A DNA stretch of 64,000 nt from a candidate division WOR-3 bacterium (GTDB lineage: Bacteria > Hydrothermota > UBA3072). The position numbers and the translations under genes were made by a program. The stretch lies in assembly GCA_039804165.1 (NCBI GenBank), contig JBDRZZ010000008.1:448-64447 (forward strand), written 5' to 3'. Below are positions 36,147-60,997 of this stretch, in pieces. Numbering within the stretch: the first letter of the stretch is position 1; every line of letters begins with the position of its first letter. The notes under the pieces were generated by a model. That model saw only the letters and a program-made list of their open reading frames with translations, did no database searches and was not told the DNA's origin.

Positions 36147-36174
36147 TTGACAAATTGGAGAAAAGTAATAGTTT
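36147..36174 (+). promoter_or_regulatory. Weak sigma70-like promoter candidate for the corrinoid gene pair
   Basis: TTGACA (36147-36152), a 16-nt spacer and TAGTTT (36169-36174). The -10 box is poor. Confidence 0.3.
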
Positions 36175-36201
36175 ATTTTTATTTAAAGAGAGGAGGGTAT
36201 A

Positions 36202-38228: not shown

Positions 38229-38256
38229 TTGACAAAACTGGAAAAAATGTTAGAAT
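38229..38256 (+). promoter_or_regulatory. sigma70-like promoter of the receptor operon
   Basis: TTGACA (38229-38234), a 16-nt spacer and TAGAAT (38251-38256). An AT-rich leader of about 150 nt precedes the ATG at 38410. Confidence 0.55.
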
Positions 38257-44236: not shown

Positions 44237-44246
44237 GGAGGGAAAG

Positions 44247-46832: not shown

Positions 46833-48431
46833 ATGAATCAGTTGTGTTTTCTTTTTTCGCTCTTTTCAATATTTGTCTTTTTAGGCTGCCAGCAAATAAG
46901 GTATAACGAAATCTATACGAATCCTGTTATTCCAGGCTGTTATCCTGATCCTAGTATTTGTAGGGTTGGGGATGATTATTATACTGTTCATAGCTCTTTT
47001 GAGTATTTCCCAGGAGTTCCAATATTTCACAGTAGAGATTTGGTTCACTGGCGTCAAATTGGTTATTGTCTAACAAGAGAGAGCCAACTACCTCTTAAGA
47101 AAATGAGAACTTCTGGAGGAATATATGCTCCAACTCTCAGATATCACAATGGTTTATTCTATATGATTACCACCAATGTTGATGGAGGAGGTAATTTCTA
47201 TGTGACAGCGAAGGATCCTCGTGGCCCTTGGTCCGATCCTGTATGGTTGGATAAAGGAGGATTTGATCCTTCTCTTTTCTTTGATGATGATGGGAAGGTT
47301 TATTATACTCGTCATGAAGGGGAAGCACACGGTTATATTGCTCAATGTTTGTTAGATTTAAAAGAGGGAAAACTTGAAGGAGAGATGAAAAAGATATGGG
47401 AAGGAACAGGAGATATTTGGCCAGAAGGTCCACATTTATATAAAATTAATGGAAAATATTATTTAATGATTGCTGAAGGGGGAACTAGTTACGGTCATAT
47501 GATTACAATAGCTCGTTCTGAATCCCCTTGGGGCCCTTTTGAGCCAAATCCTAATAATCCAATTTTGACACATAAACATTTGAAAGATCATCCCTTCCAG
47601 GCTCTTGGACATGGAGACCTTGTTGAAACTCCTGATGGATGGTGGATTGTTTTTCTTGGAATTAGACCAAAAGGAGGTTACTATAATCATCTTGGGAGAG
47701 AAACTTTTCTTGCCCCAGTTAAGTGGACTAAAGACGGTTGGCCTATTGTTAATGAAGGAAAGCCAATTGAGGAGATAATGAAGGCACCAAGATTACCGAG
47801 ATTTGAGGTTGAAGAAGAAGCGGTGAGGGATGACTTTGATAAAGAGGAATTTTCCCTTTGCTGGAACTTTTTAAGGAATCCTTATATAGAGAATTACTCT
47901 TTAACTGAAAGACCCGGTTATCTTCGTCTTTATGGATCAGAAATTACAATGGCAGATCAGGATTCTCCGACATTTCTTGGTCGCCGTCAAACAGCAATGG
48001 AATGTAAGGTGGTTACGAAACTTGAGTTTAATCCTCAAAAAGAAAATGAGGAGGCAGGGCTTGTTATTAGAGGTAATGAGGCAAACCGTTATGAATTAGG
48101 AATTACAAAAAGAGATGGGAAACGTTGTGTGTTTTTGAGGAAAACTGTAAAGGGGAAATTAGAAGAGCCTATTAAGTATGAGGGGATTGGAGAAGGAGAG
48201 GTTATTCTCTCTATTGAAGCAAAACCTCTTTCCTATGAATTTTTCTATCAAGTAGGAGATGAAGAACCTAAGAGTTTAGGAACTGCACTTACGAAATATC
48301 TTTCCTTTGAGGAAGTGGAAAGCTTTTTGTTTACAGGTGCATATATTGGGTTATATGCAACTGGGAATGGTGTTAAATCTACAGCTCCAGCTGATTTTGA
48401 TTGGTTTGATTTTATTGTGTATAAGAAATGA
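46833..48431 (+). CDS. GH43 beta-xylosidase/alpha-L-arabinofuranosidase, predicted lipoprotein
   Basis: Lipobox 'VFLGC'. 'NPVIPGCYPDPSICRVGDDYY', 'GIYAPTLRYHNGLFYM' and 'GFDPSLFFDDDGKVYY' are present, plus a C-terminal concanavalin-like domain. Confidence 0.85.
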   Translation: MNQLCFLFSLFSIFVFLGCQQIRYNEIYTNPVIPGCYPDPSICRVGDDYYTVHSSFEYFPGVPIFHSRDLVHWRQIGYCLTRESQLPLKKMRTSGGIYAPTLRYHNGLFYMITTNVDGGGNFYVTAKDPRGPWSDPVWLDKGGFDPSLFFDDDGKVYYTRHEGEAHGYIAQCLLDLKEGKLEGEMKKIWEGTGDIWPEGPHLYKINGKYYLMIAEGGTSYGHMITIARSESPWGPFEPNPNNPILTHKHLKDHPFQALGHGDLVETPDGWWIVFLGIRPKGGYYNHLGRETFLAPVKWTKDGWPIVNEGKPIEEIMKAPRLPRFEVEEEAVRDDFDKEEFSLCWNFLRNPYIENYSLTERPGYLRLYGSEITMADQDSPTFLGRRQTAMECKVVTKLEFNPQKENEEAGLVIRGNEANRYELGITKRDGKRCVFLRKTVKGKLEEPIKYEGIGEGEVILSIEAKPLSYEFFYQVGDEEPKSLGTALTKYLSFEEVESFLFTGAYIGLYATGNGVKSTAPADFDWFDFIVYKK

Positions 48432-49519
48432 TGGAGAAAATTAAGGATTTTAGAGAAGATTATCCTTTAAAAGAAATAATTAAGGATTTCCATATTGGAG
48501 TCGCTCTAAGTAAAGATCAGATTGAAGGAAAAGAGCCATTAACAACAGCTCTTGTGGAGAGACATTTCAATAGCATTACTCCTGAAAATATTCTTAAGTG
48601 GGAGGAAGTCCATCCTGAGCTTGATAAATATAATTTTTCTCCAGTTGACCTTTTTGTAGAATTTGGAGAAAAAAATAGAATGTTTATGGTTGGGCATACT
48701 CTTGTTTGGTTCTATCAAACTCCTTCCTGGGTTTTTGAGGATAAAGATGGGAACCCTTTAGATAGAGAATCTTTACTAAGTAGAATGAAAGACCATATCT
48801 TTACTGTAATGGGTCGGTATAAAGGAAGGATTCAAGGATGGGATGTTGTTAATGAAGCAATTGCAGAAGATGGGAGTTTTAGGAAATGTAAATGGTTGGA
48901 AATTATAGGAGAGGACTATATTCAAAAAGCTTTTGAATATGCTATGGAGGCTGACCCATCTTGTGAACTTTATTATAATGAGTATGATCTTGAGAAGCCT
49001 CCTAAGTGTGAAGGAGTGATCCGTCTTTTGGAGAATCTTAAGAGGAAAGGGATTAGAATAGATGGAGTTGGGGTTCAGGGGCATTGGTTTTTAGATTACC
49101 CTCATTTGGAAGAGATTGAGGCTTACATTTTAGCTATTTCTAAATTGGGGTTAAAAGTTATTATTTCAGAGTTGGATGTAAGTGTTCTTCCTTTTTATCC
49201 TGTGGATTCAAAGGCTGTGGATCTATCTTCTTTTCCAGTAGAATTCCAGAAAGTTCATAATCCTTATCCGGATGGTTTACCAGATTCTGTAGAGGAAAAA
49301 CTTGCAGATCGGTATTCAGAATTATTTTCTTTGTTTAGGAAGCATAGAGACAAAATTAAAAGGGTGACTTTCTGGGGTGTCCATGATGGACAGTCCTGGA
49401 GAAGTTATTTACCAATAAGGGGAAGGGTCGATTATCCAACTTTGTTTAATAAGGATTGTAAACCAAAGTTGGCTTTTGAGGCAGTTATTAAGGTATTTCG
49501 AGAATGTAATGAGGGTTGA
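48428..49519 (+). CDS. GH10 endo-1,4-beta-xylanase without a signal peptide
   Basis: 'HFNSITPENILKW', 'GHTLVW', 'WDVVNEA' (acid/base Glu), 'YYNEYD' and 'ISELDV' (nucleophile Glu). 4-nt overlap with the GH43 gene. Confidence 0.88.
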   Translation: MMEKIKDFREDYPLKEIIKDFHIGVALSKDQIEGKEPLTTALVERHFNSITPENILKWEEVHPELDKYNFSPVDLFVEFGEKNRMFMVGHTLVWFYQTPSWVFEDKDGNPLDRESLLSRMKDHIFTVMGRYKGRIQGWDVVNEAIAEDGSFRKCKWLEIIGEDYIQKAFEYAMEADPSCELYYNEYDLEKPPKCEGVIRLLENLKRKGIRIDGVGVQGHWFLDYPHLEEIEAYILAISKLGLKVIISELDVSVLPFYPVDSKAVDLSSFPVEFQKVHNPYPDGLPDSVEEKLADRYSELFSLFRKHRDKIKRVTFWGVHDGQSWRSYLPIRGRVDYPTLFNKDCKPKLAFEAVIKVFRECNEG

Positions 49520-49568: not shown

Positions 49569-50795
49569 GTGGCTAAGAAAAAGGATATTGAAGTTGTGGC
49601 AGCCGGGCATATTTGTCTTGATTTGATTCCGGCTTTTACTATTAAGGATAAGGTTGATAAAATCACAGATGTCCTTATCCCTGGAAAGATGATTAATATG
49701 GGAAAGTGCGTTGTTGTAGGAGGTGGTCCTGTAACAAATGCAGGGGTTTCAATTCGTAGACTCGGTGTGAAAACAGAACTGATTGGAAAAATTGGAGATG
49801 ATGATTTTGGAGAGGATGTTTTAAGATGGTATGAGGAGCATGAAGGTCATTTCAAAGGGATTAAGATGGTAAAAGGAGAATCTACCTCCTATACTATTGC
49901 GATTTGTATCCCAGGGATTGACCGATTTTATCTTCACCATTGTGGTGCTAATGACACTTTTTGTTACGACGATATGGACTTTGATCTTGTTGCAAGGGCT
50001 AAACTAATGCTTTTTGGCTATCCACCATGGATGAGGAAACTTTATGAAAATAAAGGAAGAGAACTAACAAGAATTCTTAAGAAAACAAAGGAATTAGACA
50101 CAACAACTGTTCTGGATCTATCGCTTCCTGATGTAGATAGTTATGCTGGACAGCAAAACTGGAAGGCCATTCTTGAGGATTGGGTTCCTTTAACAGACAT
50201 TATGGCTCCGAGTGCAGAAGAAATTTTTTATTTCCTTTATAAAGATGAATTTTTAAAGAAAAAAGCGAATCTTGGGCCAAGAGATAGTGTTCTTGATCAT
50301 ATAACAGTGAAGGAAATTTCTAATGTTGGGAGAGACTTAATAGAAATGGGAACAGCAGTTGCTATGGTAAAATGTGGACATAGGGGCTTGTATATTAGAA
50401 CTTCTGATAAAGATAGACTTAGTAAGATGGGTGCAGCAAAATGTTCAAATCTTGAGAATTGGGCTAATCGAGAGCTTTGGTTCCCTGTATATGAGGAAGA
50501 AAAATTTGTAGGGGCTTTGGGTTCCGGAGATTCAGCAATTGCAGGTTTTATTGCCGCATTTGTTTGGGGGCATTCTATTGAATCTTGTCTCCGTTATGCA
50601 AATGCGGCGGGGAGTATGAATGTTACTGTCCCGGATGGACTTACTTGGAACAAAGGATTTGATGATTTGACAAGAAGGATCAACTCGGGATGGAAGACGA
50701 AAAAGATGGAGATTAGAGAGGAAGGGTGGAGGTTTGAGAATGGTTTCTGGGTTGGTCCTTGTAATTTTGGCAAATGGGAAACAGAAATAAAATAA
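49569..50795 (+). CDS. PfkB-family carbohydrate kinase
   Basis: GTG start after AAGGAGGAG. 'GGGPVTNAGVSIRRLGV' and 'GSGDSAIAGFIAAF' are ribokinase-like motifs. The substrate is not assignable. Confidence 0.7.
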   Translation: MAKKKDIEVVAAGHICLDLIPAFTIKDKVDKITDVLIPGKMINMGKCVVVGGGPVTNAGVSIRRLGVKTELIGKIGDDDFGEDVLRWYEEHEGHFKGIKMVKGESTSYTIAICIPGIDRFYLHHCGANDTFCYDDMDFDLVARAKLMLFGYPPWMRKLYENKGRELTRILKKTKELDTTTVLDLSLPDVDSYAGQQNWKAILEDWVPLTDIMAPSAEEIFYFLYKDEFLKKKANLGPRDSVLDHITVKEISNVGRDLIEMGTAVAMVKCGHRGLYIRTSDKDRLSKMGAAKCSNLENWANRELWFPVYEEEKFVGALGSGDSAIAGFIAAFVWGHSIESCLRYANAAGSMNVTVPDGLTWNKGFDDLTRRINSGWKTKKMEIREEGWRFENGFWVGPCNFGKWETEIK

Positions 50796-50814: not shown

Positions 50815-52644
50815 ATGTCTAAAGCAAGAGATCTTTTTGTTAGTAATAAACTTAAAGAAATGACCTTAGACGAAAAGATTGGGCAACTTTTGACGTTTAC
50901 CTGGAGGGGAGCAATCTTGACACCCAGTGGGACTGAGCAGATTACAAAATTACATTGTGGGGGTCTTTGTCTTGAACCTTATGCTCTTGAAACTTGTAAA
51001 AACCTTTACTGGGGTAATTCTCAGATAGATCCAAATTTTAAAGAACCCAAGGGTTATTTTAAAATAGCAAATACTTATTTTTCTGGGAAAACTTATGGTA
51101 TTAGTATAACTCCTTGGGAGTATACAGAGAGATTAAATACCCTTCAGAAAATAGCTCTTAACCGTCCTTCTGGGGTTCCTTTGCATATGACAATTGACTT
51201 TGAAGGTGATTTTAAGAATGATTATATGTCTGGCGGAATTAGGCAATTTATACCTCCAATGGGAATGGCTGCCATTGGAGATACAAAACTTACTTATGAG
51301 ATTGGTTTGACTATTTCAAGGATGCTTTCGGCAATGGGTGTAACTCAAATGTATTCTCCTGTTTGCGATGTAAATGTAAATCCTGATAACCCCGAGATAG
51401 GAATAAGGGCTTTCAGTGATGATCCTCAAGTTTGTGCTAAGCATGCAGTCGCTTTAGTGAAGGGTTTACAGGATGGAGGTCTTGTTGCAACTGCAAAACA
51501 TTTCCCCGGAAGAGGAGATTCTGCAACAGATGCTCATGATGTTTTAGATGTAATAAGGTCTGATAAAAAGAGGATGCATGAAGTTGAGTTAGTTCCATTT
51601 AAAGCCGCAATAGATGCTGGGGTGAAAGCCATTATGACAGCCCATTCTGTTTATCCTGCTTATGATGATAAATTCCCTGCTACTTTATCAGAGAAAGTTC
51701 TTAAAGGTTTATTGAGAGAAGAGTTAGGATTTGAAGGGGTTATCGTTTCTGATGCTATTGGTATGGCAGCAATTTTGAAGAAATGGCCCTTACCAGTTGC
51801 TTGCGTTATGGCTATAAAGGCGGGTGTTGATACGATTCTTTTGAAGGCTGATGATGAATCAAGATCTCAATGCTTCTTTGGGATTAAAAGAGCTGTTGAA
51901 GAAGGTGAAATTCCAATGGAGAGGATTGATGAGGCTGTGACTCGTCTTCTGCGAATGAAATATGACCAAGGCCTATTCAAAACGGCTGGGAAAAATGATC
52001 CAAATAGAGTCTATAAGATTACAACTGATAAAAAAGTTATTGATTTCTCTTGGGATGTTGCGAAAAAAGCCCTTATTATAATGAGAGATGATAAGAAATT
52101 GTTGCCATTAAAGAAAGAAGAGAAGATTCTTGTGATAGAACAGAGAATTCCTTACGAATTTGTTGGTAAGGACCCATATCATCACACTCATATGTTCTCA
52201 GAGAGAATGGCTTACCACTCAACAAATCTGATTCTAACGGATACTGAATTTTCTGCATTTGAAGATGAAATTAAAGAATGTCTACAACTTGCTAAACAAG
52301 CAGATCTTGTTGTTATGACTAATTATTATGCAAGAATTGTTAAGTCTGGCAATAATCAACTTCTTGTTAAGAAGTTAAAGAAAGCAGGTCATAAGGTTGT
52401 GGTTGTGACGAATACTCCTTATTTAATAGGAACTACAGAGGAAGCCGATGCTGTTGTCTGCAATTTTAGCGCTACCCCAGATTCTATTAGAGCCTCAGCA
52501 GATTTACTCTTTGGTAAAATTAAACCTTTCCCAAAAACAAAAGTTCCTGTAAATCTTGAGGTAGAGAAAAAGAAAAAGAAGAAAAAGGTGAGTATGAAAG
52601 CTCCAAAGAAGAAAGGTTCTTCTTTAGACATCTCTTATTGCTAA
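50815..52644 (+). CDS. GH3 family glycosidase (beta-glucosidase/xylosidase/hexosaminidase type), cytoplasmic, with a lysine-rich tail
   Basis: 'LDEKIGQLL', 'KHFPGRGDSATDAH' and 'GVIVSDAIGM' are present. There is no signal peptide. The C terminus is 'EVEKKKKKKKVSMKAPKKKGSS'. Confidence 0.8.
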   Translation: MSKARDLFVSNKLKEMTLDEKIGQLLTFTWRGAILTPSGTEQITKLHCGGLCLEPYALETCKNLYWGNSQIDPNFKEPKGYFKIANTYFSGKTYGISITPWEYTERLNTLQKIALNRPSGVPLHMTIDFEGDFKNDYMSGGIRQFIPPMGMAAIGDTKLTYEIGLTISRMLSAMGVTQMYSPVCDVNVNPDNPEIGIRAFSDDPQVCAKHAVALVKGLQDGGLVATAKHFPGRGDSATDAHDVLDVIRSDKKRMHEVELVPFKAAIDAGVKAIMTAHSVYPAYDDKFPATLSEKVLKGLLREELGFEGVIVSDAIGMAAILKKWPLPVACVMAIKAGVDTILLKADDESRSQCFFGIKRAVEEGEIPMERIDEAVTRLLRMKYDQGLFKTAGKNDPNRVYKITTDKKVIDFSWDVAKKALIIMRDDKKLLPLKKEEKILVIEQRIPYEFVGKDPYHHTHMFSERMAYHSTNLILTDTEFSAFEDEIKECLQLAKQADLVVMTNYYARIVKSGNNQLLVKKLKKAGHKVVVVTNTPYLIGTTEEADAVVCNFSATPDSIRASADLLFGKIKPFPKTKVPVNLEVEKKKKKKKVSMKAPKKKGSSLDISYC

Positions 52645-52660: not shown

Positions 52661-55189
52661 ATGATGCCAGGGATAAAAATAAAGGATGTTTTTACGATTT
52701 CCGGATCTGAAATAACACAGATTTATGAGAAGAACAGGATGAAGGTTCATTTCCAGGGGATGTCAAAAACCCTCCTTTTCCCTCAAACAATTGCCCTTCA
52801 AGGTGCTCCTACCTGTTCTATTGGAATTTCTCCCTATGGTTTGTATAATAGACTTAATGATTCAGGGAGATTGATCCTTTTAAATCAAAATGCTATTCAG
52901 TTTGGTTCCGCTCCTTTTATAAGGATAGACGGAGAAGCTTGGATGCTTACAAGTAAGGATCCGGAATTGGTAGAGGGTCCTGATGATATTCCTGCTATGA
53001 AGAATTATTATCATCCACCTTTACCAGAAAAAAACATCACGATTTCTATTGCGACTCCTTCTTTGGAGATTGTTTATAAGATAGGTAAAATTGTTGTTAC
53101 AAGAAGATTTATTTCACCGTTTTTATATAAAAGAGAACACGCTCTAATGCCTATTGGTGTTGAGGAATATGAGGTTAGAAATACAACCGATAAAGAAAAA
53201 GAAATTACCTTGGTTTTACCTCGTCCTTCTCTTGTGAATCTTCAAGAGAAAGAATTAAAGCCTTTAGATCAGGATACTGTTTACATATGTTCAACACCTG
53301 TTAAAGGACACATTCATGAGGATTTTGATACAGAGACTATTAGAGGAGTTGTAATGGGAAGCAAAGAATGCGAAGACAGAATGGTCATAGCTTGTCCAAA
53401 AACGAAAGGTGTAAAAATAGATACTCAGCCTTATTTTTGCCTGAATCGACTGAAACAAGATTTGTTGTTGAATGATGATGGAACCTTTTATGAAAAAAGA
53501 CCCCCAAAGTTAAATCAGGATTATGGTGCAGCTATAAGTTTATCCTTTACTTTAGGACCAAAAGAAGAGAAGAAGATGCCATTTGCAGTTGCCTTGGATT
53601 TCCCTAAACAGCGTTTTATTGATGGTAAGACATTTGAGCGTAGATATGTTAGTAGTTTTAAGAATGAGAAGACAAGACCTATTGAGCTTGTTAAGATTGG
53701 ATTGGATAATTATCCTCTTTGGTTCGAAAGGACAATGACGATTCAAGAGAGAATATATAATTTGATAAGGAAGAGTCCTTCTTATAAGAATGATAATGAG
53801 GGAGCTTTAAGATTAGCAAGATTAATCTTCAATGAGTTTAGTTTCCCTCTATCAAATGCGGCTTGTTGGGTTATAGATGAAAAGGGGCAAGAAAGAGCAA
53901 GATTCTTAGAATGTTTTGATTATTCTTATATTGATCCTTCGGATGTAGAATGGTATTCGATGATGCTTCTTGTTCTATTCCCTGATATTGAAAAAGAAAT
54001 CTGTCAGAGGTTTATTGACTCTATTAATAAGGAAAACAAAGAGAAACGCTATTATCATCATCATGCTTCTTTTGTAGAAGCAAGGAAGCATTTTGAAGAA
54101 CATCCTGAAGAGTACGAAGGTAAATCCTTGACTCAAATCTATGATATAACGAAGATTAAAGGGGCTGTTTCACATGATTTAGGACATTGGGTGAAAGGTC
54201 ATCCTTTGCGGAATGTGAGTGAATATGCCTGGTATAACGATAACTACTGGATTGATCTTTTCCCGAAGCTTGCAACAAGAGTTTTACGTAATGTGAAATT
54301 TACTGGTGATATAGAGTTCTTAAAGAAGAATTGGGAGACACTAAAGTTCGGCTTTGAACATTTGAAAACGCACGATCATGATGGGGATGGTATTCCTGAA
54401 GGTTATCCTGGAGAAGTGAAGAATACTTTTGATAATTTACCTCTTTTTGGTGTAGATGCTTACGATGCTACAATTTTTATGGCAGGATGTAAGGCTATGA
54501 GTATAATGGCCGGTATGATGAAGGATGAAGAGGCTAAAAAGAAATATGAAGAAAGTTTTGAGAAAGCTTTCACTCAATTTGAGAAATTGTGGAGAGAAAA
54601 GAAAAACAAGAAAGGTAAAAAACTTCAATATTATGTAACTTGTTATGACCCAAAAACAAAAAAGATAAATACGGATGTCTGGTTAAATCAATTAGATGCG
54701 ATTTGGGCTTTACTTTCAATGGGAGAAGAATCTTTTATCCCCGAGGATAAAGTAAAGAAAATTCTTAAGACAATCTATGAGAATAATGAGACTTTAATGG
54801 GTTGGGCTATGTGTCGAACAGAGAATGGGGGTAAAGTGGAATCTGAACAGGGACAAGACGTTTATACAACTTCTAATTATGTTTTTGCTGAGCTTCTTGA
54901 TTACTATGGGATGGTGAAGGAGAGTAAGGAAGTTTATAAGAAGATGGATAAAGTTATATTTGGTCATGGAAATTCTCTGATTTCTCCAGATAATATACGA
55001 GCTGAATTGGAAATAGAACATGGAGAGAAGACCCCAGGACCTCATTATATTGTGGCTGCTTACCCTCGTCCTGGCGCGATTTTAACACATATTGTTTTAC
55101 AACATATAAAGGAGCTGAAAGAAAAGAAAAAGACTGAAAGAGTAGATTCTAAGGACTTACAAGCTTTTATTAGAGAGTTAATGAAATAG
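52661..55189 (+). CDS. GH116-like (GBA2/DUF608-type) six-hairpin glycosidase
   Basis: 'FLECFDYSYIDPSDVEWYSMMLLVLFP' resembles the GBA2 nucleophile region 'LEGQEYRMYNTYDVHFY'. 'NTFDNLPLFGVDAYDATIFMAG' resembles the acid/base region. Both comparisons are from memory. It is 842 aa with no signal peptide. Confidence 0.55.
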   Translation: MMPGIKIKDVFTISGSEITQIYEKNRMKVHFQGMSKTLLFPQTIALQGAPTCSIGISPYGLYNRLNDSGRLILLNQNAIQFGSAPFIRIDGEAWMLTSKDPELVEGPDDIPAMKNYYHPPLPEKNITISIATPSLEIVYKIGKIVVTRRFISPFLYKREHALMPIGVEEYEVRNTTDKEKEITLVLPRPSLVNLQEKELKPLDQDTVYICSTPVKGHIHEDFDTETIRGVVMGSKECEDRMVIACPKTKGVKIDTQPYFCLNRLKQDLLLNDDGTFYEKRPPKLNQDYGAAISLSFTLGPKEEKKMPFAVALDFPKQRFIDGKTFERRYVSSFKNEKTRPIELVKIGLDNYPLWFERTMTIQERIYNLIRKSPSYKNDNEGALRLARLIFNEFSFPLSNAACWVIDEKGQERARFLECFDYSYIDPSDVEWYSMMLLVLFPDIEKEICQRFIDSINKENKEKRYYHHHASFVEARKHFEEHPEEYEGKSLTQIYDITKIKGAVSHDLGHWVKGHPLRNVSEYAWYNDNYWIDLFPKLATRVLRNVKFTGDIEFLKKNWETLKFGFEHLKTHDHDGDGIPEGYPGEVKNTFDNLPLFGVDAYDATIFMAGCKAMSIMAGMMKDEEAKKKYEESFEKAFTQFEKLWREKKNKKGKKLQYYVTCYDPKTKKINTDVWLNQLDAIWALLSMGEESFIPEDKVKKILKTIYENNETLMGWAMCRTENGGKVESEQGQDVYTTSNYVFAELLDYYGMVKESKEVYKKMDKVIFGHGNSLISPDNIRAELEIEHGEKTPGPHYIVAAYPRPGAILTHIVLQHIKELKEKKKTERVDSKDLQAFIRELMK

Positions 55190-55209
55190 AAAAATTTGGG
55201 AGAAATTGA

Positions 55210-56817
55210 ATGCACAAACGAGGTCCAAAAGAGGAACCTCGGGTGGTTTTCCCTTTTTTTGGAAAATCTAAAGAAATAGAAATTGGAAAAACTCTTCTCC
55301 ATTATGCCCAAGAATTAAATATTCCAATAAATGCAGGATGCGGTGGTTTAGGGATTTGTAAGGAATGTAGAGTGAGAATAGAAAAAGGGGGAGAATCCTT
55401 AAGTAAAAAGACAAAGTTAGAAGAAGAGTTAGATGAGAAAGAGAGATTAGCTTGTCAGGCAATTGTTGAAAATAAAAAAAGCGATCTTTTTGTAGAGGTT
55501 CTTTTTCCTGGTTTTGTAGATAAAATTCTTACAGGAGGGAAAAGAAGAAAACTTCAAATAGATCCATTACCTAAAAGGAGAGGAAATAAAGTTTTTTTGG
55601 ATGGAGAAGAAATTGGAAATTATCAGGATGGATTATTTGGGATAGCTGCAGATATTGGAACAACAACCGTTGTTTTACATTTAATAAATCTTGAGAAAGG
55701 AAATATTGTTTATACTTCTGCTTTTGAGAATCCGCAAAAGAAGATCGATGGGAACAATGTTATAAGTAGAATAAAATTCGATTCAGAATATCCTGGAAAA
55801 CTTCAGTTTGTTCTTATCTCAAAGATAAATGAAGAGATAAATAGAATGCCAGTCAGGAAAGAAAGTATTTATGATTTTGTTGTTGTGGGGAATAGCACAA
55901 TGAGAGATTTGTTTTTTGGCCTGCAGGTTCAAAGTCTTGGAGTTAGCCCTTATAAGTCTATTACAGAGAAAGAAGGGAAGAAAACTTCTATTAAAGTAAA
56001 AGGGGAAACCTTGAATCTTCATATTAATAAAAATGCTATAGTTTATTCTCCCCCTTTAATTGGCTCTCATCTTGGTTCTGATGCTCTTAGTGTTTGTCTT
56101 TCTTGTGGTTTATTTGAGGAAGATAAAAAAAATATAATGTGTATAGATATTGGAACCAATACGGAAATAATTTTGAAGACTGAGGAAGGTATTTTTGCAA
56201 CTTCTTGTGCTGCAGGATCTGCTTTAGAGCCAATGCCTGCTCTTCCTGGTGCAATTTACAGATTCGGAATGACTAATGGTGTTTTTACCTGGGAAACAAT
56301 CGGAGAAGTAGAGCCGATAGGTATTTGTGGCTCTGGAATAATTGATATTTTAGGATGTTTGATTAAAAATGGACTGATGGATGAGAATGGGTATTTAACA
56401 AAAGGGAAGATTTTTAAAATAACAGATAAAATAAAGATTACCCAATCAGATATAAAAGGAGAAAAAGGACTTCTTTGGAGTAAAGCAGCAATATCTCTTG
56501 GGATAAGAGTTCTTTTAGAAGAAGCAAGGATTTCTTTAGATGATTTGGATAAAGTGTATCTTGCAGGGTCCTTTGGGAGTTTTATTGATAAAGAAAATGC
56601 AAAGATTATTGGTCTTATTCCAGATATTTCTTCAAAGAAGATAGTTCAGGTAGGTAATGCAGCTGCCTTAGGTGCAGAGGAGATGTTGCTATCTTGTGAG
56701 AAAAGAGAAATAGTTGAGGATTGGGCGAGTAAAATAAAGAAAATATTTTTAGAGGAAATTCCTGATTATGGGGAGAGACTAATCTTATTCGAACAAAAAT
56801 TTAAAAGATTGAGATGA
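55210..56817 (+). CDS. RACo-type corrinoid activation/regeneration protein (2Fe-2S ferredoxin domain plus ASKHA/DUF4445 ATPase)
   Basis: The plant-type ferredoxin Cys pattern is 'CGGLGICKEC...LACQ'. ASKHA phosphate motifs 'GIAADIGTTTVVLHL' and 'CIDIGTNTEIIL' and a later 'GSFG' are present. It is 535 aa. Confidence 0.7.
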   Translation: MHKRGPKEEPRVVFPFFGKSKEIEIGKTLLHYAQELNIPINAGCGGLGICKECRVRIEKGGESLSKKTKLEEELDEKERLACQAIVENKKSDLFVEVLFPGFVDKILTGGKRRKLQIDPLPKRRGNKVFLDGEEIGNYQDGLFGIAADIGTTTVVLHLINLEKGNIVYTSAFENPQKKIDGNNVISRIKFDSEYPGKLQFVLISKINEEINRMPVRKESIYDFVVVGNSTMRDLFFGLQVQSLGVSPYKSITEKEGKKTSIKVKGETLNLHINKNAIVYSPPLIGSHLGSDALSVCLSCGLFEEDKKNIMCIDIGTNTEIILKTEEGIFATSCAAGSALEPMPALPGAIYRFGMTNGVFTWETIGEVEPIGICGSGIIDILGCLIKNGLMDENGYLTKGKIFKITDKIKITQSDIKGEKGLLWSKAAISLGIRVLLEEARISLDDLDKVYLAGSFGSFIDKENAKIIGLIPDISSKKIVQVGNAAALGAEEMLLSCEKREIVEDWASKIKKIFLEEIPDYGERLILFEQKFKRLR

Positions 56818-57734
56818 AAAAGGTAAAAGCTTCTGTTATTATTCCTACTTCTGATAGACTTCCGGTTCTAAAGGCTTGCATTTTTGCTCTCTTGAATCAG
56901 ACGGTAGAGGATTTTGAGATTATTCTTATTGATGATGCTTCAAGGGATGGGACAAGAGAATTTATAGAAGACTCTAATTTCTCTAAAGTTAGATATTTCC
57001 GACTTGAGCAAAGGAAAGGACCTTATTATGCTCGAAATTTAGGAATAAAAGAAGCAAAAGGAGAGATAATAATTTTTATTGATTCGGATGTTGTTGTTTT
57101 CCCGGATTTTGTAGAAGATCATTTAGAAATTCATGATAGAAGGGAAGATCTTGTTGTTCAAGGGATGGTTAGACATATTGAAACATTAGATGAGGTCAAT
57201 TTTAATAGATTTTATCTCCCTAATGCTCTTTGCCTTAGAACATTTATTACCCAAAATGTTTCTCTAAGAAGGAAATATCTTATAGCCGTAGGTGGTTTTG
57301 AATTATTTGGCCCTGAGTTAGGTTATAAAGATATAGATTTAGGATTTAGACTAATGGACCTTAGACTTAAGTGGGTTTATGGGATAAGGAAATGCAAGGC
57401 TTTCCATATAGATGGGGAATTATCTTTGGAAAGTCTTAAGGGTATATTTTTGAAGTGGGAGAAGCAAGGAGCTTCTGCGTATTATTTTGTTAAGAAGTGG
57501 GGAAATAGAGGAGAAAAATACGCAAGAACAAAAAAAGCTATTTTATTTTCTAAGTTATTTAATACAAAAAGATGGATAGAGAATGAAAATGTTATTAGGC
57601 TTATTTTGGAAAGCGAAGATAATTTCGGTTTAGTTTCGGCTTTCCTTAGAGGATTAGCTCGTTATCATTATAGGAATAAAGGGATTGAAGAGGCGAGAAA
57701 AAATGAAGGCTTCAGTTATAGTAGTGACATTTAA
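56814..57734 (+). CDS. Family 2 glycosyltransferase
   Basis: 'SVIIPTSDRLPVLKACIFALLNQTVEDFEIILIDDASRDGT' and the 'FIDSD' DxD region. ATGA overlap with the RACo-like gene. Confidence 0.8.
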   Translation: MKKVKASVIIPTSDRLPVLKACIFALLNQTVEDFEIILIDDASRDGTREFIEDSNFSKVRYFRLEQRKGPYYARNLGIKEAKGEIIIFIDSDVVVFPDFVEDHLEIHDRREDLVVQGMVRHIETLDEVNFNRFYLPNALCLRTFITQNVSLRRKYLIAVGGFELFGPELGYKDIDLGFRLMDLRLKWVYGIRKCKAFHIDGELSLESLKGIFLKWEKQGASAYYFVKKWGNRGEKYARTKKAILFSKLFNTKRWIENENVIRLILESEDNFGLVSAFLRGLARYHYRNKGIEEARKNEGFSYSSDI

Positions 57735-58602
57735 TAGGGCTCCTATTTTGGTTCATTGTATAGATAAACTATTGAACCAATCGGTGGATGATTATGAAGT
57801 TATAGTTGTTGATGATGGTTCTACAGATGGAACAGAAGATTTGATAAAGAAAATTGATGATAAGAGAGTTTTATATCTTAAAAATGAAAAAAATATGGGG
57901 CAGCCCTTTTCCAGAAATAGAGGAATAAAAATTGCAAATGGAGAGGTAATTATATTTGTGGATTCGGATGTATTAGTTCATAAAAATTTTGTAGAGGACC
58001 ATTTGAAAATTCATGAAAGAAACGATAAATTGATTGTTCAAGGTTTAGTTAGACATATAAGAGATATAAAAGATTATAATAAAATGAATCTTAAAATTGA
58101 TGGTCTTTGCCTTAGTGGACTTGTTACCCAAAATGTTTCTGTTAGAAGAAAATGGCTTTTAGAAGTTGGAGGCCTTGACGAGTCTTTTGGAACCATTATG
58201 GGGTATGAGGATATAGAGTTGGGCAGGCGCCTTAAAGGGATTGGTCTTAAAACTGTTTATTCTTGGAGAAGGTGTCTTGCTTGGCATATGGATGGCAGAG
58301 AAACAGATGAACGTTTAGAGAGCGTTTTTAATAAAGCTTTTATGTTTGGTAGAAATGCAGTTAAATTTTCAAGAATGTATGGTAAGAAAGTGGCAATGAG
58401 ACATTTAAAGAAAAATTATGTTTTTTTTATAAATAAGATTCTTGGAACAGAATATTGGGTGGAGAAAAAGGGCCTTAATTATCTTAAGACGCACAAAAAT
58501 GGTTTTTCTTATCCAATTCTAAAATGGATTATAAAATATTATTACAGAGGAAAAGGAATTAAAGAGGCTTTGAAAGAGGAAGGAAGTATTTATGATTATT
58601 AA
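57703..58602 (+). CDS. Family 2 glycosyltransferase, tandem paralogue of the previous gene
   Basis: I prefer the ATG at 57703 over the TTG at 57685. 'SVIVVTFNRAPILVHCIDKLLNQSVDDYEVIVVDDGSTDGT' and 'FVDSD' are present. It is collinear with the upstream GT2, including the C-terminal 'YYRGKGIKEA' versus 'HYRNKGIEEA'. Confidence 0.8.
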   Translation: MKASVIVVTFNRAPILVHCIDKLLNQSVDDYEVIVVDDGSTDGTEDLIKKIDDKRVLYLKNEKNMGQPFSRNRGIKIANGEVIIFVDSDVLVHKNFVEDHLKIHERNDKLIVQGLVRHIRDIKDYNKMNLKIDGLCLSGLVTQNVSVRRKWLLEVGGLDESFGTIMGYEDIELGRRLKGIGLKTVYSWRRCLAWHMDGRETDERLESVFNKAFMFGRNAVKFSRMYGKKVAMRHLKKNYVFFINKILGTEYWVEKKGLNYLKTHKNGFSYPILKWIIKYYYRGKGIKEALKEEGSIYDY

Positions 58603-60997
58603 AAAATTTCTTAGAATTTTTATTTCACCTAAAACCTCATTTCTTCTTGTATTTTTTCTTATTCTGAGTGTTATAATTGGCACATTAATTGATAGGAATT
58701 ATGGAAAGTCTACTGCAGAAGTTCTTGTTTATAATTCTAAATGGTTTACAATTCTTTGGTCTTTCTTCGCTATTACTCTTTTGACAAATCTTATTTATTT
58801 TAGGTTATGGAAGAAAAAGGCTATCTTTTTTTTCCATCTTGCAATTTTGATTATTCTATTAGGTTATGGAGTTACTCGGTTTTCAAGCGTGGAAGGTTTT
58901 CTTCATCTTAGGGAAGGAGAGGGGGGAAATGAGTTTTTCTCTCCCCATCCTTATTTGTGGATTAAGGTGAGTGATGATAATTTTTCTATGAATAAAGAAT
59001 GTCCGATTTATGATATTTTGGGGGAAGGATGGGAAAGAAAAATCGATGCTGGGGATTATCCTATTTATCTTAAGATTGAAAATTATATCCCAAATGCAAG
59101 AAAGGCAATTGTGGAAGATTCTACCGGAGAACCTCTCTTAGAAATTGTTGTTTTTACTCCTCATTTTTCTACTTCTTGGATTTTAGAGAAAGGAGAAAAG
59201 GATTCTTTATTTGGCATTAATTTTGGTTTTGAAGCTCAGTTTAAAGGAAAAGATCCTTTTATTAATTTTGAAGAAAAAAAAGAAAGAATATGTTTTTTCG
59301 CAAATCGCCCTATTAAAATGGAAGATAAAGCTGGGCAGAGATATAATCCTTTTATTTATGTGGAACTGGAAAGTTTAAAAATTTATACAATTGATACAGT
59401 TTCTTTTATGTTAACCAAATATCAGCCAAAAGGAAGAATTAAAGCCATTCCTATGGAAATCTTTGAAGAAAATTTAAAACGCATTGAGGCAATTAATGTG
59501 ATTGTAAAAAAGGGAATTTTCCATAGCTCATTTTCATTATTCTTGGAAGATAAAGACAAGTCTAACTCAAAAGTATTTGATTTTAATGGACTTAAGATGA
59601 ATTTGAAATTTGGGCAGAAATCATTTTTTTTGCCTTTTACATTACGTTTGGTAGATTTTAAAATCAAGCGATACGAAGGTAGAGAGGAGCCATCTCAGTT
59701 TCAAAGCGAGCTGGTAATAGAGGAGCCTTATCTTAAAAAAGGGAAGTATTATTCAATTTGGTTGAATCATCCGCTTTTTTATAGGGGCTATCATGTATAT
59801 CAACACTCTTTTGATAAGGATGAGAAAGGCTCTACTTTTTTTGTTGTAAAAGATCCTGGAACTCCTATTGCATATTTCGGCTTTTTCCTACTTATTGTAA
59901 CAATGATTTTTATAGCTTTTAGCCCTAAAGGAAGAATTAGGGAACTTAAAAGAGGACTTGAGAACTCTTTTTTATCCTTTTTATTTCTTAATTTTTGTTT
60001 TAATCTTTCTTCCTGGAATGTAAAAATTGAGAATTTTTATTATCGTATTAATATTTTTGAAAAATTAGGGGAGTATTTTTTAGTTATTATAGGACTTTTT
60101 CTGTTAATGAATTTGTTTTTAAGGATTTTAAAGGTTCGCTTTAAAAAAACATTTTCTTTTGTAGATAAATTTCTTAATTTTGGAATATTTGTTGGATTTT
60201 TGGGATTAAGTTTTGGTTTAGCTATTAGGTGGTTTTTGTCTGGTTATCCGCCATTGAGTAATAAATATGAAACTATGATTTTCGTCTCTTGGGCTATTCT
60301 TTTAGCTGGAATTTTACTCTCTTTTAATTCTCGTTTACCAATTCTTTTTGGAGGAACCTTCTCCGGGGTTTTGTTAATCCTTGCTCATTTATCCTCAAGC
60401 TATAAAATTAACCCTCTATCTCCTATTTTGAAGTCAAAGTGGTTAATTTTTCATGTTGGCATTGCAATAACTAGTTATGGGTTCTTTTTTATAGGAACCG
60501 GAATGGCAATTTTTACTCTTTTAGTGTTGGGGCTTTCAATCTCTAAAAGAGAAAATCAACTTCTTTTTAAGACTTTGAAGTGGAGTAAAATTATAGAACA
60601 AGCGCTTTGGATTGGTCTTTTCCTTATTATTTTAGGAACAATATTTGGAGCAATATGGGCAAATGAAAGTTGGGGGAAATATTGGGATTGGGACCCAAAA
60701 GAAGCTTGGACATTAGTTGTGATTCTTAGCTATACTCTTCTTCTTCATCTTCGTGTTATTTTCCCTTCTAATTGGAGATATTGGCTGATTGTAAGTTCAA
60801 TACTTTGTTTTGGGAACTTGCTTATGACGTATTTTGGGGTAAATTTATTTTACTCAGGGAAACATTCATACATAAATGGAGGGTTTACTAAATTTCCCAT
60901 AGGAATAATTCTATTTTTAGGAATTTGGTTCTTATTATCAATTCTTGCGTATCGAAATAAAGATATATTAAATCCGGAGGGCAAAAGTCGCTTCTAA
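58592..60997 (+). CDS. ccsBA: Fused system II cytochrome c synthase CcsBA (ResB-like N-half plus CcsA/ResC-like C-half)
   Basis: 801 aa. The N-terminal half is ResB-like with TM segments and a large loop. The C-terminal half is multi-TM with the WWD motif 'WANESWGKYWDWDPKEAWTLV'. Confidence 0.8.
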   Translation: MIIKKFLRIFISPKTSFLLVFFLILSVIIGTLIDRNYGKSTAEVLVYNSKWFTILWSFFAITLLTNLIYFRLWKKKAIFFFHLAILIILLGYGVTRFSSVEGFLHLREGEGGNEFFSPHPYLWIKVSDDNFSMNKECPIYDILGEGWERKIDAGDYPIYLKIENYIPNARKAIVEDSTGEPLLEIVVFTPHFSTSWILEKGEKDSLFGINFGFEAQFKGKDPFINFEEKKERICFFANRPIKMEDKAGQRYNPFIYVELESLKIYTIDTVSFMLTKYQPKGRIKAIPMEIFEENLKRIEAINVIVKKGIFHSSFSLFLEDKDKSNSKVFDFNGLKMNLKFGQKSFFLPFTLRLVDFKIKRYEGREEPSQFQSELVIEEPYLKKGKYYSIWLNHPLFYRGYHVYQHSFDKDEKGSTFFVVKDPGTPIAYFGFFLLIVTMIFIAFSPKGRIRELKRGLENSFLSFLFLNFCFNLSSWNVKIENFYYRINIFEKLGEYFLVIIGLFLLMNLFLRILKVRFKKTFSFVDKFLNFGIFVGFLGLSFGLAIRWFLSGYPPLSNKYETMIFVSWAILLAGILLSFNSRLPILFGGTFSGVLLILAHLSSSYKINPLSPILKSKWLIFHVGIAITSYGFFFIGTGMAIFTLLVLGLSISKRENQLLFKTLKWSKIIEQALWIGLFLIILGTIFGAIWANESWGKYWDWDPKEAWTLVVILSYTLLLHLRVIFPSNWRYWLIVSSILCFGNLLMTYFGVNLFYSGKHSYINGGFTKFPIGIILFLGIWFLLSILAYRNKDILNPEGKSRF

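What the first reader, a model, noticed from the sequence alone, without database searches (positions are those of the whole stretch)
55210..56817. RACo-type corrinoid reactivase embedded in a glycoside hydrolase operon, suggesting corrinoid-dependent demethylation linked to xylan use
A 2Fe-2S ferredoxin/ASKHA (DUF4445) protein of the type that ATP-dependently re-reduces inactive Co(II) corrinoid proteins starts 20 nt after the GH116-like gene. It overlaps the following GT2 gene (ATGA). It shares strand and array with GPH-GH43-GH10-PfkB-GH3-GH116, which lie 17 kb downstream of the MtaC/MtaB-like pair.

My inference is that the corrinoid system serves plant-polysaccharide catabolism. One option is anaerobic O-demethylation of 4-O-methylglucuronate side chains of glucuronoxylan or of other methylated sugars. 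Another is capture of methanol released from methyl-esterified hemicellulose or pectin.

Aerobic marine bacteria are known to use P450s for methyl-sugar demethylation. I am not aware of a described corrinoid-based anaerobic counterpart tied to a xylan locus.
Basis: inference. Interest (0 to 1): 0.7.

Follow-up and report, generated by a model that had tools for sequence, protein, structure and literature searches.

The report
Corrinoid reactivase beside xylan genes
The gene is a genuine ATP-driven repair enzyme for vitamin-B12-type methyl-transfer proteins, and in an uncultured sediment phylum (WOR-3) it sits directly after a xylan-digesting gene cluster in seven related lineages, which hints at, but does not prove, a link between plant-fibre breakdown and methanol or methyl-group use.

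Summary
Window 55210-56817 (+) encodes a 535-aa RACo-type protein (2Fe-2S ferredoxin, RACo middle and ASKHA domains). It starts 20 nt after GH116 and overlaps a GT2 gene by ATGA.

Its likely partner is the MtaC/MtaB pair at 36202-38210. A relative with 55% RACo identity has the canonical mtaC-mtaB-RACo operon, and RACo genes lie near mtaCB in many of 80 metagenome loci. The organism belongs to candidate division WOR-3.

The order GH116 then RACo is kept in seven distinct lineages, while the genes downstream of RACo differ. Close relatives also place mtaA-mtaC-mtaB next to the same outer-membrane gene trio, or next to arabinoxylan hydrolases. So the linkage is real, but it is lineage-specific.

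Three findings weaken the stronger reading:
- Relatives have a conserved terminator hairpin between GH116 and RACo; only the window lacks it.
- MtaB is an ordinary family member, with its zinc ligands and 132 of 135 conserved positions kept.
- The window has no alpha-glucuronidase, no esterase and no second methyltransferase.

Best reading: this is the reactivase of a methanol-type corrinoid system that is co-located with a xylan locus. Direct demethylation of methyl sugars is unlikely but not excluded. A neutral origin by genome rearrangement remains a serious rival.

The parts
55210..56817 (+). RACo/RACE-type reductive activase of corrinoid proteins: an N-terminal 2Fe-2S ferredoxin domain (Cys43, 49, 52, 81), a RACo middle domain and a C-terminal ASKHA ATPase domain
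   Evidence: Pfam scores 176.7, 121.8 and 42.4 bits. It scores 185.7 bits to RACo structure 3ZYY, with DIGTTT, IDIGTN and AGSFG aligned to the ASKHA motifs. It falls below the NCBIfam AcsV and RamA equivalog cut-offs.
36202..36840 (+). MtaC-like corrinoid protein, the presumed substrate of the activase
   Evidence: B12-binding_2 81.7 bits and B12-binding 102.6 bits. The DxHxxG motif is present as GDLHDIGKN. It is 65% identical to the MtaC of the canonical mtaC-mtaB-RACo locus L012.
36837..38210 (+). MtaB-family methanol:corrinoid methyltransferase; its start overlaps the mtaC stop
   Evidence: PF12176 552.8 bits and 331 bits to M. barkeri MtaB 2I2X. The Zn ligands E164/C220/C269 correspond to window E165/C221/C267 and are invariant in alignment A1. 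132 of 135 family-conserved positions are kept. NCBIfam MtaB_Meth scores 454 bits, below the 720 cut-off.
36066..36096 (+). Terminator-like hairpin after the unrelated 158-aa ORF; it marks the 5' limit of the mta unit
   Evidence: A 13-bp stem followed by a T-run.
36147..36180 (+). Promoter-like TTGACAAA...TAGTTT motif before mtaC
   Evidence: The same motif lies before mtaC or mtaB in L013, L014, L020 and L017. This is a consensus match only.
38229..38256 (+). Promoter-like site (TTGACA, 16 nt, TAGAAT, with TG) between mtaB and the outer-membrane barrel gene
   Evidence: It matches 11 of 12 positions. 18 of 19 nt are identical to the mtaC promoter region of L013.
38410..41865 (+). Outer-membrane barrel protein with a CarboxypepD_reg N-domain (weakly TonB-dependent/SusC-like); first gene of the trio
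   Evidence: Pfam and NCBIfam hits. Orthologues at 55-57% identity follow RACo in relatives, and the L013 orthologue (67%) follows mtaB. No PDB relative was found beyond the N-domain.
41885..44236 (+). 783-aa signal-peptide protein of unknown fold with a weak T9SS-type C-terminal sorting domain; second gene of the trio
   Evidence: No Pfam hit. Weak Por_Secre_tail/PorZ C-terminal hit. No PDB match with the profile.
44247..45218 (+). PorV/PorQ-family outer-membrane protein; third gene of the trio
   Evidence: NF033709 179.3 bits, above the cut-off of 90.
45375..46802 (+). GPH-family (glycoside-pentoside-hexuronide) cation symporter
   Evidence: MFS_2 278 bits. TIGR00792 376 bits, above the cut-off.
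46833..48431 (+). GH43 beta-xylosidase/arabinofuranosidase with a GH43_C2 domain; the N-terminus looks like a lipoprotein signal
   Evidence: Pfam 317.7 and 198.2 bits. The N-terminus reads MNQLCFLFSLFSIFVFLGCQQ.
48428..49519 (+). GH10 endo-xylanase without a signal peptide (probably cytoplasmic)
   Evidence: Pfam 309.8 bits. N-terminus shown.
49569..50795 (+). PfkB-family sugar kinase of unassigned specificity (408 aa)
   Evidence: Pfam 72.6 bits. No NCBIfam equivalog is reached. It is 78-82% identical in relatives.
50815..52644 (+). GH3 glycosidase
   Evidence: Pfam 248.5 bits.
52661..55189 (+). GH116 glycosidase, the conserved upstream neighbour of RACo
   Evidence: Pfam 152.5 and 62 bits. 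It is 73-75% identical to the GH116 that precedes RACo in L002, L005, L006, L100, L103 and L105.
56814..60997 (+). Two tandem GT2 paralogues and a ResB/CcsA fusion whose start and stop codons overlap RACo and each other. This neighbourhood is specific to the window and was not seen in relatives.
   Evidence: Relatives instead have the trio, or PCC plus DctPQM, after RACo.

Best explanation
The gene encodes the ATP-dependent reductive activase of a methanol-type corrinoid methyltransferase system.

Proposed mechanism, from established knowledge of RACo and of O-demethylase activating enzymes: when the cobalt of MtaC is accidentally oxidised to the inactive Co(II) state, the 2Fe-2S domain delivers one electron. 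ATP binding and hydrolysis in the ASKHA domain make this uphill reduction to Co(I) possible. MtaB then uses its zinc site to transfer the methyl group of methanol to Co(I)-MtaC. A second methyltransferase of the MtaA/URO-D type passes the methyl group on to an unknown acceptor. That enzyme is present next to mtaC in relatives but absent from this window.

In this WOR-3 lineage the parts of the system are interleaved with a locus for uptake and hydrolysis of xylo-oligosaccharides: mtaC-mtaB, the outer-membrane trio, GPH, GH43, GH10, PfkB, GH3, GH116, then RACo. In the window RACo is very probably co-transcribed with GH116.

I infer that this co-location lets the cell keep its methanol-capturing system active while it feeds on plant cell-wall material, a setting in which methanol is released.

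Shown: domain identity, orthology to operon-linked RACo genes, and conserved gene order. Inferred: the pairing with MtaC, methanol as the substrate, and the physiological link to xylan.
For: Identity:
- All three RACo domains score above their cut-offs.
- The match to RACo structure 3ZYY is 186 bits, with the ASKHA motifs present.
- The four cluster cysteines are present.

Partner:
- The window holds only one corrinoid protein, one MtaB and one RACo.
- L012 has mtaC-mtaB-RACo in a row, with 65%, 63% and 55% identity to the window proteins.
- RACo homologues lie within 10 kb of mtaCB in more than 20 of the 80 MtaB loci.
- L010 places the RACo orthologue next to two URO-D genes and a homocysteine methyltransferase gene.

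Substrate:
- The MtaB zinc ligands are invariant.
- 132 of 135 family-conserved positions are kept.

Linkage:
- GH116 then RACo occurs in seven lineages whose RACo proteins are 64-84% identical to each other, with three different downstream contexts.
- mtaA-mtaC-mtaB, the trio and two MFS genes form one run in L013/L014. The 3' end of L013 is 90.8% identical in DNA to the 5' end of L005.
- mtaACB abuts GH43-CBM6, GH43, GH51 and GH2 genes in L019.
- In the window, a 20-nt gap without a hairpin separates GH116 from RACo.
Against: - Relatives have a conserved intrinsic-terminator hairpin (-19 to -26 kcal/mol) followed by 50-600 nt between GH116 and RACo, so co-transcription is not the general rule.
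- All GH-linked cases come from one clade. They may trace back to only one or two ancestral rearrangements, and with so few events an unbroken junction is expected by chance.
- No second methyltransferase is present in the window.
- No esterase or alpha-glucuronidase that would tie xylan to methyl groups was found in the window or in the 10-kb flanks of relatives.
- Outside this clade the GH linkage is absent.
- In most relatives no mtaCB lies within 10 kb of RACo.
Confidence: 0.55

Rival explanations
1. Neutral hitch-hiking. RACo is the activase of the Mta system, but its place after GH116 is a historical accident. Either a xylan locus inserted between mtaB and RACo, or a block was duplicated or permuted. 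Descendants simply inherited the junction, and there is no functional or regulatory tie to xylan use.
For: - The canonical ancestor-like order mtaC-mtaB-RACo exists in L012.
- The window order reads as that operon with about 17 kb of trio and GH genes in between.
- Relatives keep a strong terminator between GH116 and RACo.
- The linkage is limited to one clade.
- Only a few rearrangements separate the architectures, so an unbroken junction is expected by chance.
Against: - The junction survives three different downstream contexts: GT2 genes, the trio, and PCC plus DctPQM.
- In the second architecture RACo stayed with the GH cluster and not with mtaACB.
- mtaACB is again next to hemicellulase genes in a different arrangement in L019.
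- In the window the terminator has been lost and RACo is joined to the GH operon.
Confidence: 0.3
2. Direct corrinoid-dependent O-demethylation of methylated sugars. The MtaB-like enzyme, or the URO-D enzyme of relatives, would take the methyl group from 4-O-methylglucuronate or another methyl sugar carried by imported xylo-oligosaccharides. RACo would keep the corrinoid active.
For: - Conserved co-location with a GPH (glycoside-pentoside-hexuronide) importer and with cytoplasmic GH10, GH3 and GH116 enzymes.
- A TRAP DctPQM transporter lies next to the locus in L005, L006 and L105.
- MtaB is below the NCBIfam equivalog cut-off (454 versus 720 bits), and the URO-D of relatives is a divergent MtaA/CmuA member (80 versus 235 bits).
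- No paper on a corrinoid route for methyl sugars was found. Only the P450 route turned up (PMC6292453).
Against: - The MtaB of this clade is indistinguishable at conserved positions from the wider bacterial MtaB family, whose usual context has no GH genes.
- The zinc site is identical to that of the methanol enzyme 2I2X.
- From my own knowledge of the MtaBC structure, the active site is buried under the corrinoid domain and is sized for methanol.
- No GH67/GH115 alpha-glucuronidase and no uronate pathway gene was found in the window or in the flanks.
- The URO-D gene is missing from the window.
Confidence: 0.07
3. RACo serves a different corrinoid enzyme encoded elsewhere, for example a split methionine-synthase-like system. 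Alternatively, the neighbouring outer-membrane trio imports corrinoids rather than xylan fragments, so that the trio and RACo form a cofactor-supply module that merely neighbours the GH operon.
For: - In most relatives RACo has no mtaCB within 10 kb and is followed directly by the trio.
- The trio always follows an Mta-system gene: mtaB in the window and L013, RACo in the others.
- Homocysteine S-methyltransferase genes accompany RACo or Mta clusters in L010, L037, L045, L078 and L096.
- The trio has no recognisable SusD partner and only a weak SusC signal.
Against: - No cobalamin riboswitch was found in the window, L002, L100, L013 or L019.
- The trio family is multi-copy: a second copy follows in L103, as expected for nutrient-uptake loci.
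- The barrel shows no BtuB similarity in the PDB profile search.
- mtaACB contigs at 75% identity occur in the same metagenome as loci with RACo followed by the trio (L020 and L006/L106).
Confidence: 0.08

Closest known systems
RACo of Carboxydothermus hydrogenoformans (PDB 3ZYY, 4C1N), activator of the corrinoid/iron-sulfur protein
   Same: The domain order is the same: 2Fe-2S ferredoxin, middle domain and ASKHA ATPase. The match is 186 bits over residues 136-509, with conserved phosphate-binding motifs.
   Different: The window protein is shorter (535 versus 631 aa), with a shorter linker region. It scores below the NCBIfam AcsV cut-off (245 versus 800 bits). Its partner is predicted to be a small MtaC-type corrinoid protein, not CoFeSP. 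No acetyl-CoA synthase genes lie nearby.
Activating enzymes (RACE proteins) of bacterial O-demethylase systems (Acetobacterium dehalogenans, Desulfitobacterium hafniense; PMC6739815)
   Same: They have the same protein family and the same predicted job: ATP-dependent Co(II) to Co(I) reduction of a small B12-binding corrinoid protein in a three-component methyltransferase system.
   Different: Those systems use methyltransferase I enzymes that cleave phenyl methyl ethers. Here the methyltransferase I is MtaB-type. The genomic setting is a glycoside hydrolase cluster, not an aromatic O-demethylase operon.
RamA of Methanosarcina (activase of methylamine and methanol corrinoid proteins)
   Same: It has the same role in methylotrophic corrinoid systems and a related ASKHA core (TIGR04270, 152 bits over residues 144-349).
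   Different: RamA carries 4Fe-4S clusters in a C-terminal ferredoxin-like domain (my own knowledge). The window protein has an N-terminal 2Fe-2S domain and is far below the RamA cut-off of 500 bits.
Methanol:corrinoid methyltransferase systems MtaABC of methanogens, acetogens and Desulfotomaculum kuznetsovii (2I2X; PMC5770442)
   Same: An MtaB with identical zinc ligands and an MtaC with DxHxxG are translationally coupled as mtaC-mtaB. Relatives add an MtaA-like URO-D gene.
   Different: The host is a WOR-3 bacterium that, as far as the window shows, is neither a methanogen nor a known acetogen. The system is split around a 17-kb polysaccharide locus. MtaA is absent from the window. The methyl acceptor is unknown.
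Cytochrome P450 demethylation of 6-O-methyl-galactose in marine Bacteroidota polysaccharide loci (PMC6292453)
   Same: The concept is shared: a demethylating system encoded inside a polysaccharide utilisation locus.
   Different: That route is oxygen-dependent, uses an unrelated enzyme family and has experimental proof. Here there is only gene-order evidence, and the enzyme looks methanol-specific.

Membership tests
RACo/RACE reductive activators of corrinoid enzymes | N-terminal plant-type 2Fe-2S ferredoxin domain with four cysteine ligands | tested here: met
   Fer2 scores 42.4 bits, above the cut-off of 21. The pattern C43-x5-C49-x2-C52...C81 is present in the translation and aligns to 3ZYY.
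RACo/RACE reductive activators of corrinoid enzymes | RACo middle domain | tested here: met
   PF17651 scores 121.8 bits and covers profile positions 1-160 of 163.
RACo/RACE reductive activators of corrinoid enzymes | C-terminal ASKHA ATPase domain with phosphate-binding and adenosine motifs | tested here: met
   PF14574 scores 176.7 bits. DIGTTTVV, IDIGTNTE and LAGSFGSF align with the corresponding 3ZYY segments.
RACo/RACE reductive activators of corrinoid enzymes | A cognate corrinoid protein encoded nearby or in the same genome | tested here: met
   MtaC lies at 36202-36840 on the same strand, 18.4 kb upstream. It is directly adjacent in the orthologous locus L012.
RACo/RACE reductive activators of corrinoid enzymes | ATP-dependent reduction of Co(II) to Co(I) in the partner protein | not testable with these tools
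   This needs purified proteins and UV-visible or EPR spectroscopy.
AcsV / RamA equivalogs (NCBIfam NF040756, TIGR04270) | Score at or above the curated equivalog or subfamily cut-off | tested here: not met
   245.5 bits against a cut-off of 800, and 152.2 bits against a cut-off of 500. It is therefore a RACo-family member but neither AcsV nor RamA.
Methanol:corrinoid methyltransferase system (MtaABC) | MtaB TIM-barrel enzyme with the Glu/Cys/Cys zinc site | tested here: met
   PF12176 scores 552.8 bits. E165, C221 and C267 align to E164, C220 and C269 of 2I2X and are invariant in 24 homologues. It is below the methanogen equivalog cut-off (454 versus 720 bits).
Methanol:corrinoid methyltransferase system (MtaABC) | MtaC corrinoid protein with the DxHxxG base-off/His-on motif | tested here: met
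   GDLHDIGKN is present. The two B12-binding domains score 81.7 and 102.6 bits.
Methanol:corrinoid methyltransferase system (MtaABC) | Second methyltransferase (MtaA/URO-D type or pterin-binding type) | tested here: not met
   tblastn with four URO-D or homocysteine methyltransferase queries finds nothing in the window. A URO-D gene is present directly upstream of mtaC in L013, L014, L015, L019 and L020.
Methanol:corrinoid methyltransferase system (MtaABC) | Methanol as the methyl donor | not testable with these tools
   Only indirect evidence is available: 132 of 135 family-conserved positions are kept.
Bacteroidota-type polysaccharide utilisation locus (SusC/SusD) | Adjacent SusC-like TonB-dependent transporter and SusD-like lipoprotein | tested here: not met
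   TIGR04056 scores only 45.8 bits against a cut-off of 368. No SusD family hit was found for the 783-aa neighbour. The locus works like a PUL by position only.
Corrinoid-dependent ether-cleaving O-demethylases (Odm/Vdm/Mtv type) | A substrate-specific methyltransferase I of that type next to the corrinoid protein | tested here: not met
   The only methyltransferase next to MtaC in the window is MtaB-type.

The most novel reading that the evidence does not exclude
In this WOR-3 clade, the MtaB/MtaC/RACo system (plus the URO-D enzyme of relatives) processes methyl groups that enter the cytoplasm on imported methylated xylo-oligosaccharides. It would do so either by direct O-demethylation of 4-O-methylglucuronate or by trapping methanol eliminated from it. 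That would be the first anaerobic, corrinoid-based counterpart of the aerobic P450 methyl-sugar demethylases.
Probability: 0.1. Interest if true: 0.8.

Novelty: new member of a known kind. Interest (0 to 1): 0.4.

Why it matters
If the co-location reflects function, fermentative WOR-3 bacteria in anoxic sediments would consume methanol or methyl groups as they are released from plant cell walls. That would divert a substrate usually credited to methylotrophic methanogens, and so bears on sediment methane budgets.

The finding also yields a concrete, testable gene set: MtaB, MtaC, RACo and the URO-D enzyme of relatives. With it one could ask whether an anaerobic route for the methyl ether of 4-O-methylglucuronoxylan exists. 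My literature searches found no such route.

If the co-location is only historical, the locus is an ordinary Mta system in an unusual neighbourhood.

Tried and rejected
- Rfam found no cobalamin riboswitch or any other family in the window, L002, L100, L013 or L019.
- I searched for pseudogene remnants of mtaA, mtaC or mtaB in the gaps on either side of RACo in relatives. Nothing scored better than E = 0.06.
- I looked for a shared operator or promoter motif linking RACo, the trio and the mta genes. A TTGACAAA...TAGTTT promoter-like motif is conserved before mtaC, and a similar one lies before the window trio. It is absent before RACo or the trio in relatives, and its count in the window is not above chance (28 of 100 shuffles give at least one match).
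- Consensus promoter and terminator scans of the array give counts equal to the shuffled controls.
- Profile searches of the trio proteins against PDB sequences gave no functional clue.
- No flanking repeats suggest a recent insertion of the GH block.
- Literature searches for a corrinoid or MtaB link to xylan, 4-O-methylglucuronate or methyl sugars found nothing specific.
- I did not attempt structure prediction. Only single-sequence input was permitted for the proteins of interest, and the family assignments were already unambiguous.
Full report
**1. Observation**

The ORF at 55210-56817 (+) encodes 535 aa. It carries the full RACo domain set:
- Fer2, residues 18-86, 42.4 bits.
- Raco_middle, residues 143-301, 121.8 bits.
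- RACo_C_ter (the ASKHA domain), residues 308-523, 176.7 bits.

The protein matches the solved RACo of Carboxydothermus hydrogenoformans (3ZYY) at 185.7 bits. The ASKHA phosphate and adenosine motifs (DIGTTT, IDIGTN, AGSFG) and the four cluster cysteines are in place.

GH116 stops at 55189, so the gap to RACo is 20 nt and contains a GGGAG ribosome-binding site. The RACo stop and the start of the next GT2 gene overlap as ATGA.

MtaC (36202-36840) and MtaB (36837-38210) lie 17 kb upstream on the same strand.

**2. The wider array in the window**

From 36202 to 60997 all genes are on the + strand, with short gaps or overlaps:
- mtaC and mtaB.
- An outer-membrane trio: a 1151-aa barrel with a CarboxypepD_reg domain, a 783-aa protein of unknown fold, and a PorV/PorQ-family protein.
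- GPH, GH43, GH10, PfkB, GH3 and GH116.
- RACo.
- Two GT2 genes and a ResB/CcsA fusion.

Upstream of mtaC there is an unrelated 158-aa signal-peptide ORF. It is followed by a terminator-like hairpin (36066-36096) and a promoter-like TTGACA site. The mta unit therefore probably starts at mtaC.

GH10, GH3, GH116, PfkB and RACo have no signal peptide, while GH43 has a lipoprotein-like N-terminus. This fits import of xylo-oligosaccharides followed by hydrolysis in the cytoplasm.

GroEL from the window is 82-89% identical to proteins named candidate division WOR-3 or Candidatus Stahlbacteria. The one named close RACo relative is also from WOR-3.

**3. What RACo works with**

The window has exactly one corrinoid protein, one MtaB and one RACo. 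It has no URO-D, pterin-type or homocysteine methyltransferase.

Several lines of evidence tie this RACo to the Mta system:
- The RACo relative P0073 (55% identity) sits in a canonical mtaC-mtaB-RACo operon. Its MtaC and MtaB are 65% and 63% identical to those of the window.
- Relative P0042 (61%) lies beside two URO-D genes and a homocysteine S-methyltransferase gene.
- Among 80 metagenome loci with MtaB at about 50% identity, the usual neighbourhood is mtaC-mtaB with a RACo homologue and a URO-D gene.

RACo is thus best read as the fourth component of an Mta-type system.

MtaC has the DxHxxG motif. MtaB keeps the three zinc ligands of the M. barkeri enzyme. It also keeps 132 of the 135 positions that are at least 90% conserved in the wider bacterial MtaB family. 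Nothing points to a remodelled substrate site.

**4. Is the linkage to glycoside hydrolases conserved?**

Yes, within one clade. Context look-ups of six RACo proteins at 64-69% identity to the window protein gave loci L002-L009 and L100-L107. All show (MFS)-GH43-(GH10)-PfkB-GH3-GH116 followed by RACo.

Together with the window, these loci represent seven distinct lineages. Their RACo proteins are 64-84% identical to each other and their GH116 proteins 73-94%. One locus comes from an NCBI MAG, GCA_964523975.1.

What follows RACo differs between lineages:
- GT2 genes in the window.
- The outer-membrane trio in most relatives, followed by DctPQM in L105.
- PCC plus DctPQM in L005.

On the MtaB side, relatives at 70-75% identity show three contexts:
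- NfeD, then mtaA(URO-D)-mtaC-mtaB, the trio and two MFS genes (L013, L014). This matches the window.
- mtaA-mtaC-mtaB facing GH43-CBM6, GH43, GH51 and GH2 genes (L019).
- No carbohydrate genes at all (L017).

The 3' end of L013 is 90.8% identical in DNA to the 5' end of L005. A second lineage therefore probably has the window architecture, with mta genes at the 5' end of the xylan locus and RACo at its 3' end. This is an inference from two separate contigs.

Outside the clade the linkage disappears. RACo relatives at 57-61% identity have no GH neighbours. Only 4 of the 80 MtaB loci have any GH of my panel within the flanks, and none is adjacent.

**5.

In relatives from all six sister lineages, the 70 nt after the GH116 stop are conserved. 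They fold into a 15-17-bp hairpin followed by a T-run. The folding energy is -19 to -26 kcal/mol, with z-scores of -5.5 to -8.2 against shuffles. This is a textbook intrinsic terminator.

RACo then follows after roughly 50-600 further nt. So in most relatives RACo is the next gene after the GH operon but probably a separate transcription unit. Only the window has lost the hairpin and joined RACo to GH116.

In addition, the architectures differ by only a few rearrangements. With so few events, one junction staying intact is not statistically remarkable.

**6. Interpretation**

I commit to the following. The gene is a functional RACo-type activase that keeps MtaC in the Co(I) state. The system most likely uses methanol. 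In this WOR-3 clade it is co-located, and in the window co-transcribed, with a xylo-oligosaccharide locus. This plausibly matches methanol capture to feeding on plant cell walls. My confidence in the whole statement is 0.55, and much higher for the enzyme identity alone.

The main rival, at 0.3, is that the arrangement is a neutral legacy of rearrangement.

Direct demethylation of 4-O-methylglucuronate or other methyl sugars is possible but disfavoured (0.07):
- MtaB is an ordinary family member.
- No alpha-glucuronidase or uronate gene was seen.
- The second methyltransferase is missing from the window.

A further reading, at 0.08, is that RACo serves another corrinoid enzyme or that the trio imports corrinoids. 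It has little support:
- No cobalamin riboswitch was found.
- The trio family is multi-copy.
- mtaACB contigs occur in the same metagenome as some of the RACo-plus-trio loci.

**7. Literature**

Searches found no paper linking corrinoid methyltransferases to xylan loci or to methyl-sugar demethylation. The following points are documented:
- The P450 route for 6-O-methyl-galactose (PMC6292453).
- Genome-level co-occurrence of mtaB and xylanases in Brockarchaeota (PMC8065059).
- The presence of mtaB in WOR-3 MAGs (PMC12343361).
- ATP-dependent activating enzymes of O-demethylases (PMC6739815).

**8. Verdict**

The protein is a new member of a known family, in an unusual genomic setting that is conserved within one lineage. 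Interest is moderate (0.4). The setting is a good lead for experiments, but on present evidence the chemistry is most likely ordinary methanol methyl transfer.

Noticed in passing
L002:9900-9955, L005:9945-10000, L006:9325-9378, L100:9570-9625, L103:9446-9500 (absent at window 55190-55209): A conserved intrinsic-terminator hairpin (GATAGGTTTAAGGCCGTGAGGTTTTAAACCTATC plus a T-run, -19 to -26 kcal/mol) lies directly after GH116 in relatives. The window has lost it and joins RACo to the GH operon.
   Followed up: yes
window 35570-36046; L013:8207-9241, L019:1638-2663, L020:2605-3630: Relatives have a divergent MtaA/CmuA-family URO-D gene directly upstream of mtaC. The window has an unrelated 158-aa signal-peptide ORF there and no second methyltransferase anywhere in its 64 kb.
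   Followed up: yes
L010:15451-16368, L037:5244-6074, L045:7436-8320, L078:4669-5499, L096:11139-11978: Homocysteine S-methyltransferase (PF02574) genes recur next to bacterial mtaB/mtaC/RACo/URO-D clusters. This suggests that methyl groups from methanol may feed methionine synthesis in some non-acetogenic bacteria.
   Followed up: partly
window 49569-50795: The PfkB-family kinase (408 aa, unusually long) is the most conserved protein of the GH cluster (78-82% identity in relatives), yet it reaches no NCBIfam equivalog. Its sugar substrate is unknown.
   Followed up: partly
window 38410-45218 and orthologues in L002, L006, L013, L100, L103, L105: A conserved outer-membrane gene trio: a CarboxypepD_reg barrel of about 1150 aa, a protein of about 780 aa with unknown fold and a weak T9SS-like C-terminus, and a PorV/PorQ-family protein. 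It always lies immediately downstream of an Mta-system gene (mtaB or RACo). A second copy follows in L103. Its function is unknown.
   Followed up: partly
window 1579-12594: A giant 3671-aa ORF with only a Big_5 Ig-like domain and a weak T9SS C-terminal sorting domain recognised.
   Followed up: partly
window 56814-58602: Two tandem GT2 glycosyltransferase paralogues share DNA segments at 77-78% identity with a spacing of about 880 nt. They are followed by a ResB/CcsA fusion gene whose start overlaps the second GT2.
   Followed up: partly
window 31189-35475 (- strand) and 19802-21256 (- strand): One cluster combines a radical SAM enzyme, an ABC ATPase, an ABC-2 permease, a 261-aa ORF without a Pfam hit and a class I methyltransferase. 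Separately there is a radical SAM/SPASM enzyme next to a metallo-beta-lactamase-fold protein. These may be peptide-modification loci.
   Followed up: no
window 26282-28123 (- strand): An amino-acid permease is fused to a PTS EIIA-2 domain.
   Followed up: no
L100:18703-20973: A cobalamin-independent methionine synthase (MetE) gene lies convergent to the trio, right after the GH-RACo-trio locus.
   Followed up: no
window 36147 and 38229; L013:9253, L014:1344, L020:3828, L017:9950: A promoter-like TTGACAAA(A/T)(C/T)...TAGTTT motif is conserved before mtaC or mtaB across relatives. A near-identical -35 region (18 of 19 nt) precedes the trio in the window.
   Followed up: partly
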